From: Carcharhinus longimanus
Lineage: Eukaryota
Reading direction: 5' to 3'
NCBI GenBank assembly: GCA_030264375.1
Contig: JASCQW010000098.1
Location: forward strand, 45,550,077-45,614,076
Length of the DNA: 64,000 bases
The position numbers are program-made. Within the stretch, counting starts at the first letter, position 1; each line of letters starts with the position of its first letter. Below, piece by piece: positions 33,901 through 39,900 of the stretch.

Positions 33901-36900
33901 TGTTAACTGTAAACTGACTTGAACAAAAAATAGAAAATGCTAGAAAAACCCATCATGTCTGGCAGCATGGGTGGAGAGAGACGGCAAAGTTAATGGCTGG
34001 AATTCTCCGGCTGTTCACGCCCCGTCGCCACTGCCAGCAAGGACAGGGAATTTGGCACTCGGCCAAATCTCCGTTCACTTCAGCAGAGAATCCCACCCAA
34101 TATTTTGAGTCTGTATGACTGTTCAGAGCTAAAGAGAGGGATGAATATCTAAGAAGTCGTATGGATTCAAAATGTTAATTCTCTTTTCTCTCTCCACTGA
34201 AGCTGTCAGACCTCCTGAGTTTCTCCTGCATTTTTTTATTTTTGCTTCCGATTCTGGCATCTGCAGTATTTTGCTTTCACTCTATGACTTAAATGTCCTT
34301 TCTATAAAATTGCCCTAACTGTAACCTAACCAATATTTTGTACAAATTTATCACTTTGCTCATATGACCTATGGCCTTGCATGTAAAACTCAGAATGCTT
34401 TTGGCTATTTTTTCAAGCTAACCCCATTCATATTTTAAGGAAATTATGTAATTTTTTTTGTCTGCACCCTTCCTTGTCTTTCCATTGAATGTGTCATTTA
34501 ATTATGACTTAATCATTATCTTGATACAAAACTTAATTTTCAATCTGTGCCAGGATCATTCATGACATCAACAGGTGGTTGTTTTTTGCTCTGTTTTGAG
34601 ACTAATATTCCCACAATTTTTAAAGAGCCAGAGAGAAGATAGAAACTGTCAGCATGGTTGTTTCTATGTTGTGTATTCTGTGTAATGGACAAAATGCTGC
34701 ACTCATTCTGGTGCATAAATGTCAGGCACTAGTGGATTTTTCAACCAAAGCCAGGTAAGTTCATCAATAAATACAAGATATGAAATAAAGCCCACCAATA
34801 TCTTTTTTCAAGCCATGCCTAAGTACATCCTTTTAAACACTCAGATTATGTGAGAAAGTTTGGGAAGTTCCCGAAGAAGTAGTTTGCAATACAAACCCAC
34901 ACACAAGCTTACGTCACATAACGAGATCTGGTTCCAATCTAAATATAGAGACGTTTCAGTTGAAAAGGGCTTAAAAGCCTGGCTTGTTTTTGTGATTGAG
35001 ATGGATCTGTCGACTGACAAGGCTGAGATTTTTGCAAAAGCCTGAATGCAGAGGTCAAAACTAATAAATAATACACATGTTCCCCTTTCTCAGATTGTGA
35101 ATCAGTGGTATTTGCTGCTTCTCTGGAATTTTCCCACCAACATACATGATGTACTTGATAATTATTCAGAAGTTTGGCTGTAGTACCCAAGTAATGGGCT
35201 TTCGTGAATAAAACGGAGGGCTTGTGGGTATTAATCTGTCAATGGTAGCCTGCTGCTGTGAACTTCAAAACCTAATCCTCCAGGCCATGCAAGCAGTGCT
35301 GTAAATTATTGTTTGGGGGCGGCACAAAATTTTGAGCTTATCCTATTGTATTTTCAGTTTGGTTCCCCTCGCTCCACTGCTGCTTTTCCAGAATTTCATT
35401 TTTTATTTATCCAGGATGGCAATGTAAATAAAGTAATGAGGGATAATTTGATCTCTCTGCCAATGCGGTAGGATGCAGTGCTTTAAACTGCAGCTCTGTG
35501 ATATATCAGTGCTGCAATTTGACCTGTTGCAATAGGACGAACAACTGCAATTTGCAATGTTAGTTTTTATGTTGCACAAAGAGTTGTATGTTTTCACTTT
35601 TTTTTAATCAGTATTAGTGAGGGCCATTATTTTTACCTCCAGTTTGTAGTTGGTGCTCCACCACAGGCCCAGGTCTCATATCAGCCGTAGTGAATTCTTC
35701 ACTACTGGATGGTTCCTATTGGCTGGAAGAAACTGCCCAATAAGGAGAGGCTGTGTTGAGTCACACTACCAAGAAGTTGCATTTTTGTGGCATCTTTGAG
35801 ATAGAAAAATGGCCCAAGCCTTTTCACAGATACATTATCAGACAAAATGCAACATCAAACCCAAACAAGAGGTATTAGGACAGGTGATCAAAAGCTTCAG
35901 CAAAGAGGTAAGGCGTACATTAAAGAAGGGGAGAGAGAGGTAGTGAGATTTTGGGATGGAATTCCAAAGCTTTTAGGTCTAAATTATGTTTGCCCAAAGC
36001 CAGAAGAAATGATGGGCTGTGCATAAAACGCAGTCTACATTTTTCACTAAAAACATGCAACCTGATGTACGTTTACAACACTTTAGTAAAGCCCAGGGCA
36101 TCTCTGTAATGGAAATAGATGTTAGACACACTGTCTGAATCTCTTGCCAATGAGGATTCATATGCAGGATTATTTCCTGCAACACTGTTTAATGAAATGG
36201 GATTATGACCATATGAAAATAGTGTAAAAAGAAATTTGATGGGAATGCGTTAACCAATGCGCTAAAAGTACTGAGTGCTTGTGTCGATAGAGGGGAATCT
36301 GACAAATCTTCATGTGGCTGAAACTTCTCTATCTGTGTACAAAAATTCCTCAATGCCCAAATAGCATCAAAAGATGAAAACATTCAGAGAGATGGGAGAC
36401 AAAGCAAACATCATAGAGCAGCAATACTCTTTACCCAGAATTTATGGGGAAGAAAGAGGTATCGTTGTAGCCTGAATAGAAAATGGAGGCTGGTTTGAAT
36501 ATTCGAGCTAAAAAGTATTGAGACGTGGGAGCTGTGAAGTTGAGAAAATTCAAGGATGCCAAGCAGGGACAGTTCTTACCCAGTTACGACAGGGTTATGT
36601 ATTTCAGTAAATATAAAATTATCACTAGAAATGTGTCCAAATGTGTTAGCACAATAAAATCCTTTCACTTTTTAAGTGCACAGATTTCTAGGCCACATTT
36701 CTGAACTCTAGTGCTGTCAAATAAATTAACTGTTCCGATATTATTGCAGTTGATGGCTCAACGAGTTGATGCACTGAGTGGCTGAATTACAGTTGTAGGT
36801 TCAATCCCCAGTCTGAGCTGACTTGGCTAGTCTCAGAGGGGGTGAAAGTGTTTCTATTCACTTACAGGATGGGGGCATTGCCAGCTAACCCAGCATTTAT

Positions 36901-39900
36901 TGTCCATCCCTAATTGCCATTGAGATGGTGGTGGTGAGCTGCCTTCTTAAACTGCTGCAGTCCATGTGGAACAGGTACACACATGTACCACGTGCTGTTA
37001 GGAAGGGAGTTTCAGGAATTTGATCCAGTGGCAGTGAGGAGACAGTGATATAGATGGTCATTGTTTGGCACTTTGTCTGGCATGAATGTTACTTGCCACT
37101 TAACAGCCCAAGCCTGAATATTGTCCAGGTCATGCATTTGGACATGAACTGTTTCAGTATTTGAGAAGTCATAAATGTTGTTACACATTGGGTAGTCATC
37201 AGCGAATGCCTCCATTTCTAACCTTATAATGAAGGGAAAGTCATTGATGAAGCAACTGAAGGTGGTTCGGCCTAAGACACTATAAGGAACTTGTAAAAAT
37301 TCCCTGGGACTGAGGTAACTGCCTTCCAACAGCCACAGGCGTCTTCCTTTGTGCTAGGTATGACTCTAACCAGTGGAGAATGTTCCCCCTCAGACTTCAG
37401 TTTTGCTCACATTCCATACTGGCCAAATGGTGCCATGATGTTCAGGGCAATCACTCTCACTTCAACTCTGGAATTCAGCTCTTCTGTCCATGTTTGGTCC
37501 AAGGTTATAATGAGATCAGGAGCTGCGTGGCCTGTTAGAACCCCAAACTGAGTGTCAGTGAGCAATTATTCCATGTAAGTGTTTCTTGAGAGCATTGTTG
37601 ATGCCACCTTCCATCACTTTGCTAATGATTGAGAGTAGACCAATGGGGCAGTAATTGGCCAGGATTTGTTCTACTTCTTGTGGACAGAACATACCTCAGC
37701 AATTTTCCACATTGTTGGATAGATGTCAGTGTTGTAGTTGTGCCGGAACAGCTCAACTAGGGGCATGGCTAGTTCTGGGGCACAGTTTTTCAGTACTATC
37801 ACAATGTTTTCCACGCTCATCGCTTTTGCAGCACTCACTGCCCTCTGCCATTATTGATATCACATGGAGTAGATTGAATTGGTTGAAGACTAACATCTGT
37901 GACTCTGGAGTTCTGAAGGCGACTGAGATTGATCATCCACTCAGCACTTCTGGCTGAAAGTGGTTGCTAAGTCTTCAGTCTTGAGACTTCATGGGATTTG
38001 GGTTTGAGATTGAAGACTCCCACGGCAACTTCCTCACAATTGTGTACCACTGTATCACCCTCTCTAGTGGCTTGTCCTGCTGGTGGGATAGAACGTACCC
38101 AGGAATGGTGTCAGTGGTGTCTGGAATATAATCACACTGGCAGAGTCATACTGTACAGGCAATGGCAGTCTGTTGCTTGATTAGTCTGTGAGACAGCCCT
38201 TCCAATTTAGGCATAAGGCCTCAGATGTTAGTAAGGAGAACTTCGTAGGTTCAACCAGGGCTGAGTTTATCATCATCGTGACTGATGTCGGGTGGTCTGT
38301 CCAGTTTCATTTCTTATCGACTCTTCTGTTGTGGTTTGTTACAACTGAGTGGCTTGTTGGGCCACTTTAGAGAGTATTTAAGAGTCAACAACATTTCTGT
38401 GACTCTGGAGTCACCTGTAGGTCAGACCAGTTAATATTTCCTGCTTTTAAAAACATTAGTGTATCAGATGGATCTTTACATCAACCGTGGTTTCATGGTC
38501 ACTGTTAGACACGTTTTTAATTCCAGATTTATTAATTGTTGGTAAATTCCAGCAACTGTTGTGTTGAGATTTGAACCCATGTCCCCAGAGTATTACCCTG
38601 GGCCACTGGATTACTAGTCCAGTGGCATTAGAACTACACCACCACTTCCCGGAAATGATGCTGTTATGCACTCATACTTCTAGGTTCAGGAAGGCAAAAT
38701 AACTCAGGATTTTTCATTTTTGATTAGGGTATTCATGTCGATTGATGACAGAATTGGGCTGGCTCACAATATGTGTGTAGATAAATGGCCTGTTGATACA
38801 CACTGCCTAGAATCACCCATGAATAATTGTTACGTGGGTGAGAGTTCTCACTTAATTCCCGCATTACAGCAGAGTTAACATCTTAAAAGGGTGAGATGAA
38901 AAAATTGACAGAAACAAAGAACTTGTTGCCAAACGATATGTATATAATTAAAGATCTTTTTCTGTAGATTGGAAGGGGATTAAGCTGGCACCAGTTACGC
39001 CTTACTCCCTCTTCACAGATGTGCCCTTATCCACGGAGAACGATTAAAGATCATCTTTTGGGGCAAAATAAAGTCATTTTCTAAGAGCAAATTCAATCGT
39101 ATCCTGAGTGTAGTTCAGTTTAAAAAAAAAATTCTAGTTTTGTTGGCAACTTTAGTTAATCTGACTTTTTGTACGCAACAGTTACTGACTTGGCATGTTT
39201 ATGAGCAAGGCAGGTGAAGTGTGTGAGGAGGAGGTGGGGTCAGTTCTAAGTCAAGAGATAAGTAAACCCTCTTGCTAAATGAAATAAACCCACAGCACTT
39301 ACTGTTGAGTTATTAGCCATAATTAGTATAGAATGTCAAGGCAGGTACCCAGGTGTTCTTGGAGGATATAATGTCCTATAAAAGTCAGACATTTATACAG
39401 TTATGGAGCCATGCTTGAGAAACAGAAAAGAAAGCTGACAGCCAAAATATTAAGAAGTGTAACCTGCAGTAAAGTATTTTGTGAATGTGGAGGTTCTTTT
39501 GGTGCCTGTCAGATTACTGTTATCCTGCTATATTCAAAGTGGCAAGAAGGTAGATTAAGCAGGGGGCTGTGCTGATAGTAACTGTAGCCTGCTCTGACAC
39601 AAAGTAATTACTGCTGGTCCACGAAGGCTGTCTGGCCTGAAATGCTTTGCTTAGCTGAACGGATGGAACCATTGTGGGCCGAACAATTGTTTGCAACTTG
39701 CATGAATGTGATGTTGTCATGGAAAAGCTGAAGACTTAGGGGAGGCTGTGTTTCCTTGGGAAGAATGCCAACCTTGTATGATTTACAACTTGGTGACTGC
39801 AGCGTTATTAAAGGGAAGCAAGTTATGGAGAAGGTAATTCAATACAGGGCAGAAGAGAATATACCTTTAATCATGCCCTAAGAGAATCTGTGATGTTTAC

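What the first reader, a model, noticed from the sequence alone, without database searches (positions are those of the whole stretch)
36855..38650. LINE with a tRNA-like pol III head fused directly to its endonuclease, no visible ORF1
Seen: on the minus strand a ~310-bp SINE-like segment (B box gggttcaaatc; sibling copies show clearer A/B boxes) is followed ~100 bp later by the N-terminus of an AP endonuclease, then CR1-group RT motifs and a 3' tail. The whole block interrupts one older SINE (head 36790-36850, remainder 38655-38905), so head, ORF and tail appear to have inserted as one unit. Known: CR1/L2 LINEs normally have ORF1 and a pol II 5' UTR. Inference: a single-ORF LINE that captured a tRNA-derived promoter. 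I cannot tell whether this family is already described.
Basis: partly seen in the sequence, partly recalled or inferred. Interest (0 to 1): 0.72.

Follow-up and report, generated by a model that had tools for sequence, protein, structure and literature searches.

The report
Shark SINE head fused to LINE
A decayed 1.8-kb mobile element in a shark-like genome joins the front two-thirds of a common short repeat (SINE) to the start of a long repeat's (LINE) enzyme gene and ends in their shared tail, hinting that the two repeats match at both ends, though one copy cannot show whether this is a family or a one-off.

Summary
The block is real. On the minus strand, 38650-36853 (1798 nt) reads in this order:
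- 328 nt of a SacSINE1-type tRNA-Deu SINE (head and body, no tail).
- A 12-nt spacer.
- An ATG in frame with the N-terminus of an AP-type endonuclease.
- Frame-shifted reverse-transcriptase pieces.
- A 3'UTR.
- A 111-nt tail shared with the SINE copies of the window.

A 466-bp SINE copy at 27605-28070 is collinear with both ends, so it equals this element minus 1359 interior bases. The LINE part is dead. It has many stops and frameshifts, and two large internal deletions.

Not confirmed: the "older SINE" said to be interrupted, any target-site duplication, and insertion as one unit. The missing ORF1 is not unusual, because single-ORF L2 LINEs are known (ZfL2-2).

No second LINE 5' end lies in the window, and no shark DNA could be searched. 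Family or one-off therefore stays open.

The SINE homology stops just before the ORF start, and there is only one tail. Both facts argue for a hybrid unit or shared ends rather than chance nesting. A working pol III promoter for a LINE is doubtful. Verdict: observation partly confirmed, interpretation partly supported, moderate interest.

The parts
38556..38650 (-). tRNA-derived SINE head. The element starts at 38650 (gggaagtggtgg...), the same start as sibling copies. B-box-like gggttcaaatc lies at 38575-38565.
   Evidence: Rfam tRNA model 1-71/71, 19.4 bits (gathering 29), E 0.16. Head alignment with 4 siblings, mean column identity 68%.
38323..38555 (-). SINE body: linker, Deu-type core and a 'pre-tail' segment (about 38375-38323) that only the long SINE copy also carries.
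   Evidence: blastn to 4 sibling copies. Only 1 of the 4 (27605-28070) reaches 38327. Pairwise alignment shows an exact 13-mer GCCACTCAGTTGT near the end. The name Deu/SacSINE1 is by likeness to the description in PMC5499810; it was not tested against a reference sequence.
38311..38322 (-). 12-nt spacer between the end of SINE homology and the ATG. It contains an in-frame TAA at 38316-38314.
   Evidence: Direct reading.
38071..38310 (-). ATG at 38310-38308 plus a 25-codon leader, then the endonuclease N-terminus (LLTNI.GL ... IPGY), with in-frame stops.
   Evidence: Profile of 9 relatives: E 1.8e-6, profile positions 21-78. blastx to P0044 residues 28-91 (E 0.002) and P0134 residues 22-74 (E 0.005). 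The conserved N of the motif is residue 28 here, against 17-39 in 7 full-length relatives.
37983..38070 (-). Possible continuation of the endonuclease in another frame (..GDTVV..). It is followed by a deletion of roughly 290 codons (rest of the endonuclease and the linker).
   Evidence: By eye only; no search supports it. The deletion is inferred from the jump to residue 414 of P0063.
37036..37982 (-). Pre-RT linker and reverse-transcriptase domain in at least 4 frame-shifted pieces, including the ..AFADD.. motif. It ends about 216 codons short of the relatives' C-terminus.
   Evidence: phmmer: 555 hits, best 2.1e-19. tblastn P0063 414-628 and 659-746, P0008 92-202 at 48%. P0153, P0158 at 47-48%. 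RVT_1 spans 521-766 in P0063.
36964..37035 (-). Unassigned stretch between the last RT match and the shared tail, taken as LINE 3'UTR.
   Evidence: Inference from position. There is no match to SINE copies or proteins.
36853..36963 (-). 3' tail shared with the SacSINE1-type SINE copies. It ends ..gtgaatagaaaca, like ..atgaataaaaca of copy 27605-28070.
   Evidence: 80 of 115 columns identical to 27959-28068. A 26-nt match at 92% to 60846-60871.
27605..28070 (+). Long SINE copy used as the comparator. It is collinear with both ends of the element, with only about 14 nt where the element has 1359 nt.

Best explanation
This is a dead hybrid retroelement. The 5' 328 nt come from a SacSINE1-type SINE (tRNA-derived head, Deu-type body, pre-tail segment). 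They are joined to an L2/CR1-group LINE at the start of its single endonuclease-RT ORF. The element ends in the 3' tail that this LINE and the SINE share.

I take it to have been made and inserted as one cDNA. The LINE's reverse transcriptase started on the tail of a LINE RNA and copied it to its 5' end. It finished on a SINE RNA by template switching, probably guided by sequence shared between the LINE's 5' end and the SINE's pre-tail segment. The hybrid then decayed, by stops, frameshifts and two large deletions.

On this reading the tRNA head is a passenger rather than the LINE's working promoter.

Shown: the anatomy, the position of the junction, the single tail, and collinearity with a long SINE copy.
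Inferred: one-step origin, template switching, homology between the LINE 5' end and the SINE pre-tail segment, and the passenger status of the head.
For: 1. The block begins at the canonical first base of the SINE and ends at the canonical tail end.
2. SINE homology stops at 38323. That is 12 nt before an ATG in frame with the endonuclease, whose leader length (N of the motif at residue 28) lies within the 17-39 seen in 7 full-length relatives. A randomly 5'-truncated LINE would start there about 1-2% of the time (my estimate).
3. There is only one tail, and no tail remnant sits between the SINE body and the LINE. An ordinary LINE insertion into a SINE would leave two.
4. The long SINE copy at 27605-28070 has the same body end and tail start, so it equals the element minus 1359 nt. 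Both boundaries are therefore shared features, not arbitrary points.
5. Template switching is the accepted route for SINE birth and for snRNA-LINE chimeras (PMC5499810 section 12; PMC4494074 passages).
6. A random 64-kb window holding such a hybrid argues that hybrids are not extremely rare (inference).
Against: - Only one locus exists. No second LINE 5' end lies in the window, and no shark DNA could be searched.
- No target-site duplication was found (1910 of 2000 shuffles reach the best match). The 'older SINE' that would frame a single insertion is unverified.
- The boundary on the SINE side rests on one long sibling copy out of 4.
- The copy is old (about 64-68% identity to siblings), so boundaries are good only to about +/-10 nt.
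- Homology between the LINE 5' end and the SINE pre-tail segment is assumed, not shown. A Repbase-wide survey found LINE 5' parts in SINE bodies only for the RTE and Vingi clades, not L2 (PMC5786205 abstract and discussion).
Confidence: 0.4

Rival explanations
1. A self-propagating lineage of single-ORF L2-type LINEs has the SINE-like tRNA-Deu segment as its regular 5' region, captured as a (pol III) promoter. This copy is one decayed member. In the strong form, the SacSINE1-type SINEs are internal-deletion derivatives of such a headed LINE.
For: - Same anatomy as for the best explanation.
- There is a size series collinear at both ends. The element is 1798 nt, and would be roughly 3.5 kb before its deletions (estimated). 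The long SINE is 466 nt (27605-28070). The short SINE is about 320 nt (58494-58815) and lacks the pre-tail segment and half the tail.
- Headed SINEs descended from internally deleted LINEs are accepted for Bov-tA and other RTE/Vingi cases (PMC5786205 introduction and discussion).
- Finding one in a random window favours many copies (inference).
Against: - No second copy was seen.
- Pol III transcripts are uncapped and stop at T runs (general knowledge). This copy has T5 at 38453-38449 and 37299-37295, though the count of 2 is not significantly low or high (P about 0.10).
- The head here scores below the tRNA gathering score.
- No paper in the searched library describes an L2 LINE with a tRNA head.
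- The deletions in this copy mean it was non-autonomous, at least at the end.
Confidence: 0.25
2. Two or more unrelated events at one locus. A SINE inserted first. Then a near-full-length LINE inserted in the same orientation at the SINE's body/tail boundary. The single tail would arise in one of three ways: reverse transcription primed on the genomic SINE tail by homology, two adjacent tails collapsing into one, or a later deletion trimming the junction.
For: - Nested insertions are common here. The SINE copy at 60233-60900 is itself split by another SINE at 60508-60840.
- This copy has suffered at least two large deletions, so a third at the junction is conceivable.
- No target-site duplication and no verified frame for a single insertion.
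Against: It needs several coincidences together: same strand, breakpoint within about 10 nt of the SINE body/tail boundary, a LINE starting within 12 nt of its ATG, and exactly one tail. My rough estimate is below 1e-4 per nested LINE-in-SINE event. It also implies a LINE with almost no 5'UTR.
Confidence: 0.3
3. Assembly artefact: a mis-join of a SINE read and a LINE read through repeat collapse.
For: The region is repeat-rich, and the window has 10 N runs.
Against: No N run lies between 26717 and 45346. Both junctions fall at element boundaries rather than inside shared repeat sequence. The SINE part and the LINE part show similar, heavy decay.
Confidence: 0.03

Closest known systems
SacSINE1 / LmeSINE1 DeuSINEs of cartilaginous fishes and coelacanth (tRNA head + Deu domain + L2-type tail; PMC5499810)
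   Same: tRNA-derived head, conserved body and a 3' tail shared with an L2-type LINE. Copy lengths up to about 463 bp are reported, matching the 466-bp copy at 27605-28070. The first 328 nt and the last 111 nt of the element are of this type.
   Different: The element carries 1359 nt of LINE ORF and 3'UTR between body and tail, so it is not a SINE by length or content. Identity with the published SacSINE1 consensus was not tested, because no reference sequence was available to the tools.
Single-ORF L2-clade LINEs such as zebrafish ZfL2-2 (PMC4176376)
   Same: One ORF encoding endonuclease and RT. The 3' tail is recognised by the LINE protein and shared with partner SINEs.
   Different: ZfL2-2 has its own repeat-containing 5'UTR. 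Here the 5' region is a SINE head and body. The clade (L2 versus CR1) was not determined here by a tree. The tail partner is called L2-2_CM-like in PMC5499810 and CR1-4_DR-like in PMC3747384.
Bov-tA and other SINEs made of a tRNA head plus the 5' and 3' ends of a LINE, and bipartite non-autonomous LINEs (Okada and Hamada 1997, as cited in PMC5786205)
   Same: A tRNA head stands upstream of sequence collinear with both ends of a LINE. Internal deletion links the long and short forms.
   Different: Those cases are from the RTE and Vingi clades only, and the coding region is gone. Here the clade is L2/CR1-group and part of the ORF is still present. That the SINE pre-tail segment is the LINE's own 5' end is not shown.
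U6-L1 and other small-RNA-LINE chimeric retrocopies made by template switching (Buzdin 2002, Garcia-Perez 2007, as cited in PMC4494074)
   Same: A pol III-type RNA sequence sits at the 5' side of a LINE sequence, made in one retrotransposition.
   Different: In those chimeras a complete small RNA is joined to a 5'-truncated L1 and target-site duplications flank the whole. Here the SINE lacks its own 3' part, the LINE starts at its ORF, and no duplication is seen.

Membership tests
SacSINE1-type tRNA-Deu-L2 SINE | tRNA-derived head with A and B boxes | tested here: inconclusive
   tRNA model matched end to end, but at 19.4 bits against a gathering score of 29. ARAGORN found none. The B-box-like motif has one mismatch to GGTTCRANYCC (the consensus is recalled).
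SacSINE1-type tRNA-Deu-L2 SINE | Deu-type conserved body | not testable with these tools
   Only similarity to 4 sibling copies in the window was shown. No Deu reference sequence was available.
SacSINE1-type tRNA-Deu-L2 SINE | Short (under about 500 bp), non-coding, body directly followed by the LINE-type tail | tested here: not met
   1798 nt, with 1359 nt of LINE ORF and 3'UTR between body and tail.
L2/CR1-group LINE | AP-type endonuclease followed by reverse transcriptase in one ORF | tested here: met
   Endonuclease N-terminus at E 1.8e-6. RT: 555 phmmer hits, best 2.1e-19. Relatives carry Exo_endo_phos_2 plus RVT_1 in 4 of 4. The ORF is broken and internally deleted.
L2/CR1-group LINE | 3' tail with a stem-loop recognised by the LINE protein | tested here: inconclusive
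   The tail is shared with SINE copies. The predicted hairpin is no better than shuffles (z 0.38, 124 of 200 fold as well). There are no consensus pairs in 4 tails.
L2/CR1-group LINE | Own 5'UTR (and ORF1 in CR1 and some L2) | tested here: not met
   The ATG is 12 nt after the SINE-like segment. No ORF1-like domain was found in 7 ORFs of the 2 kb upstream. ORF1 is not obligatory in L2.
L2/CR1-group LINE | Placement in the L2 or CR1 clade by RT phylogeny | not tested
   No labelled reference RTs were at hand; the protein library carries no names.
Headed bipartite LINE-derived SINE (Bov-tA type) | Segment after the head/body is the partner LINE's own 5' end | not testable with these tools
   It needs other full-length copies of the LINE. 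None lies in the window and no shark DNA collection was open.
Template-switch chimeric retrocopy (U6-L1 type) | Target-site duplication flanking the whole chimera | tested here: not met
   The best flank match is reached by 1910 of 2000 shuffles. The age of the copy and the short or absent duplications of CR1/L2 elements (recalled) weaken this test.

The most novel reading that the evidence does not exclude
The locus is a relic of a headed L2 LINE: an autonomous single-ORF LINE whose 5' region was the tRNA-Deu segment. The SacSINE1/LmeSINE1 DeuSINEs would then have arisen from it by stepwise internal deletion: about 3.5 kb, then the 1.8-kb form seen here, then the 466-bp long SINE, then the roughly 320-bp short SINE. 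That would be the first LINE-to-SINE deletion series outside the RTE and Vingi clades. It would also tie at least the 3' part of a conserved SINE body to a LINE 5' end.
Probability: 0.2. Interest if true: 0.8.

Novelty: new variant of a known kind. Interest (0 to 1): 0.45.

Why it matters
How SINEs are born, and where their conserved bodies come from, is an open question. The accepted cases in which a SINE is collinear with both ends of its LINE are confined to RTE and Vingi (PMC5786205).

A copy in which an L2-group ORF still sits between the body and the tail of a Deu-type SINE, starting at its ATG, would give a concrete intermediate. That holds whichever way it formed: as a LINE that acquired a SINE front, or as the ancestor from which the SINE was cut down.

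It also makes the question cheaply testable on any shark assembly. If the junction is unique to this locus, it is an ordinary chimeric or nested insertion of little consequence.

Tried and rejected
- Pfam on 7 single-frame ORF pieces of the element gave no credible family (one at E 0.12, unrelated). The pieces are too short and decayed.
- Word-indexed protein search found nothing with the RT piece or with the junction-spanning frame. Both are weak negatives.
- Word-indexed search with the close fragment P0008 gave 7 longer proteins. Five are shark or ray gene models holding LINE fragments. One is a distant full-length LINE from an unnamed contig. None holds the family's N-terminus.
- blastx of the SINE part against all 157 fetched proteins found no protein that reads from SINE body into endonuclease.
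- The genome-contig scan with P0008 returned 2 loci, both bacterial MAG contigs at 35-36% identity over 74 residues. They are irrelevant and were not used.
- Tail hairpin: no statistical support.
- T-run (pol III terminator) depletion: 2 runs observed, 4.9 expected, P about 0.10. A runs behave similarly, so no conclusion.
- Target-site duplication: none above chance.
- 'Older SINE': no tRNA match and no second copy. The other B-box SINE family of the window (24000-24290, 25958-26265) is not alike.
- A first endonuclease profile built from 15 mixed proteins was poor and was replaced.
- The Hammerhead_3 hit in a sibling's body is 15 bits against a gathering score of 48.5, and is taken as chance.
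They may bear on where L2 homology starts in SacSINE1.
Each was searched in its own frame, with X at stops.

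
Full report
**What the window is**

The close protein fragments that match the LINE part are named from sharks and rays: Heptranchias perlo, Pristiophorus japonicus and Mobula birostris. The SINE type fits the SacSINE1 family described for cartilaginous fishes (PMC5499810; abstract and sections 6, 7, 12 read, plus passages). I treat the window as cartilaginous-fish DNA. Nothing in it was taken for human. It holds 10 runs of N (758 bases), and none lies between 26717 and 45346.

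**Checking the observation**

All coordinates below are read on the minus strand.

- SINE part. The block starts at 38650 with gggaagtggtgg, the same start as sibling SINE copies at 60233 and 58494. 38650-38323 aligns to four other copies in the window at 64-68% identity.
- Head. 38643-38556 matches the Rfam tRNA model over its whole length, but only at 19.4 bits (gathering 29, E 0.16 in a 401-nt search). ARAGORN and Rfam at gathering scores found nothing in the window. The head is therefore tRNA-derived and decayed.
- ORF start. After 12 nt comes an ATG (38310) in the frame that, 25 codons on, reads LLTNI.GL ... IPGY.
- Endonuclease. A profile built from the first 140 residues of nine full-length endonuclease-RT relatives hits this place at E 1.8e-6. 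It hits nowhere else among 3186 six-frame windows; the next unrelated hit has E 4.2. Four of those relatives were scanned against Pfam. RVT_1 and Exo_endo_phos_2 were found in 4 of 4, and Exo_endo_phos in 3 of 4.
- Reverse transcriptase. phmmer with 37850-37407 (stops as X) found 555 proteins at E<=1e-3, 42 at E<=1e-10, best 2.1e-19. tblastn places residues 414-628 and 659-746 of a 962-aa relative on 37982-37036.
- Tail. 36963-36853 aligns to the tail of the SINE copy at 27959-28068, 80 of 115 columns.

**What is not confirmed**

- The flanks said to be one older SINE (36790-36850 and 38655-38905) give no tRNA match at E<=10.
- Neither flank has a second copy in the window.
- Only a B-box-like 11-mer at 36798 speaks for a SINE head. 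That pattern occurs 6 times in the window, against 0.28 expected.
- No target-site duplication exceeds chance: 1910 of 2000 shuffles reach the best match.

The flanks therefore do not prove that head, ORF and tail arrived together.

**Anatomy in detail**

The LINE part is a wreck, with stops and at least four frame changes.

- Compared with relatives of 960-983 residues, only about residues 20-80 of the endonuclease remain. By eye it might extend to about 126, but no search supports that.
- The match then jumps to about residue 414.
- It ends at about residue 746, some 216 residues short of the C-terminus.
- Two internal deletions of roughly 0.9 and 0.65 kb are thus inferred.
Each was searched in its own frame.
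- Upstream of the block, 7 ORFs in 2 kb of the same strand gave no ORF1-like domain.

**The telling comparison**

The 466-bp SINE copy at 27605-28070 aligns to 38644-38329 with its first about 335 nt (224 of 349 columns, including an exact 13-mer near the end). It aligns to 36963-36853 with its last about 110 nt. Only about 14 nt lie in between. The element is therefore this long SINE with 1359 nt of LINE ORF and 3'UTR set between body and tail. Equivalently, the SINE is the element with its interior removed.

Only 1 of the 4 sibling copies reaches this boundary:
- The copy at 58494-58815 is a shorter form. It lacks the pre-tail segment and half the tail.
- The copy at 56792 breaks off at about 57064.
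- The copy at 60233 is split by a nested SINE.

Three features argue against chance:
- SINE homology ends 12 nt before the ATG.
- The conserved N of the endonuclease motif is residue 28 from that ATG, against 17-39 in seven full-length relatives.
- There is one tail, with no tail remnant at the body-LINE junction.

**How it most likely arose**

An ordinary LINE insertion into a SINE would leave two tails. It would begin at an arbitrary LINE position and an arbitrary SINE position. My rough estimate for same strand, SINE boundary within 10 nt and LINE start within 20 nt of the ATG is below 1e-4 per nested event. The locus was, however, picked because it looked odd, and this copy has lost sequence elsewhere.

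Two non-chance readings remain.

- Hybrid cDNA (my preferred reading, 0.4). It was made in one retrotransposition by template switching from LINE RNA to SINE RNA. Template switching is the accepted source of SINE birth and of small-RNA-LINE chimeras (PMC5499810 section 12; PMC4494074 passages). It fits the boundary best if the LINE's 5' end and the SINE's pre-tail segment are homologous.
In its strong form this lineage is the ancestor of the SINE, by stepwise internal deletion.

Two published facts bear on this choice. PMC5499810 notes that two independent elephant-shark SINE families share about 160 bp at the 3' end, more than the L2 tail itself. That leaves room for a conserved pre-tail module. 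On the other side, a Repbase-wide survey found LINE 5' parts in SINE bodies only for RTE and Vingi (PMC5786205; abstract, introduction and discussion read).

Nested events plus trimming keep 0.3, and an assembly artefact 0.03.

**On the promoter claim**

- The head of this copy is below threshold for a tRNA.
- The sense strand has two T5 runs, at 38453-38449 and 37299-37295.
- The count of T runs is not significantly different from shuffles (2 against 4.9, P about 0.10), so it decides nothing.
- That pol III transcripts are uncapped and end at T runs is general knowledge. It makes a pol III-driven 3.5-kb coding element unlikely but not impossible.
- The tail hairpin expected for L2-type recognition has no statistical support here.

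**Comparison with the known**

- The missing ORF1 is no novelty. ZfL2-2 is an L2-clade LINE with ORF2 only, and it retrotransposes (PMC4176376 passages).
- The SINE part resembles SacSINE1 as described, but it was not compared with a reference sequence.
- The partner tail is called L2-2_CM-like in PMC5499810 and CR1-4_DR-like in the table of PMC3747384. I did not place the RT in a labelled tree.
- Searches of the paper library for an L2 or other LINE with a tRNA-derived head listed none, judging from titles and abstracts. The searches for SacSINE1, HE1/HER1 and L2-2_CM also listed none. This covers only that library. Repbase and Dfam could not be consulted.

**What stayed unchecked**

**Verdict**

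The unit-insertion argument is unproven. The locus is best read as a SINE-LINE hybrid collinear with a SINE at both ends. It is of moderate interest now and of high interest if the junction proves to be shared by many loci.

Noticed in passing
window 24000-24290 (+), 25958-26265 (+), 60508-60840 (+); B boxes also at 10056 (-) and 25538 (-): A second tRNA-derived SINE family (B box GGTTCAATTCC, ending ..ctgcactgtagg). It resembles the V-SINE/HE1 type of sharks as I recall it. The B-box pattern occurs 6 times in the window against 0.28 expected.
   Followed up: partly
window 60233-60900 (+): A SacSINE1-type copy split by a nested copy of the other SINE family at 60508-60840. It shows that nesting of SINEs is common in this window.
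   Followed up: partly
window 58601-58645 (+): Weak Hammerhead_3 covariance-model hit (CTGATGA ... GAAAC) inside the conserved body of a SINE copy: 15 bits against a gathering score of 48.5, E 2.2. Probably chance.
   Followed up: no
window 11669-12006 (+), 20107-20214 (+), 26338-26616 (+), 40378-40563 (+), 59177-59392 (-), 61292-61671 (+): Short RT-like fragments of other LINE copies. None has an endonuclease N-terminus.
   Followed up: no
window 10001-12000: Unusual strand composition: GC skew 0.25 and AT skew 0.19, far above the rest of the window.
   Followed up: no
window 58494-58815 (+) versus 27605-28070 (+): Two length forms of the same SINE. The short form lacks the pre-tail segment and about half of the tail of the long form. 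The two short-form copies (58494, 56792) are more alike (80%) than either long-type sequence is to anything (64-69%).
   Followed up: partly
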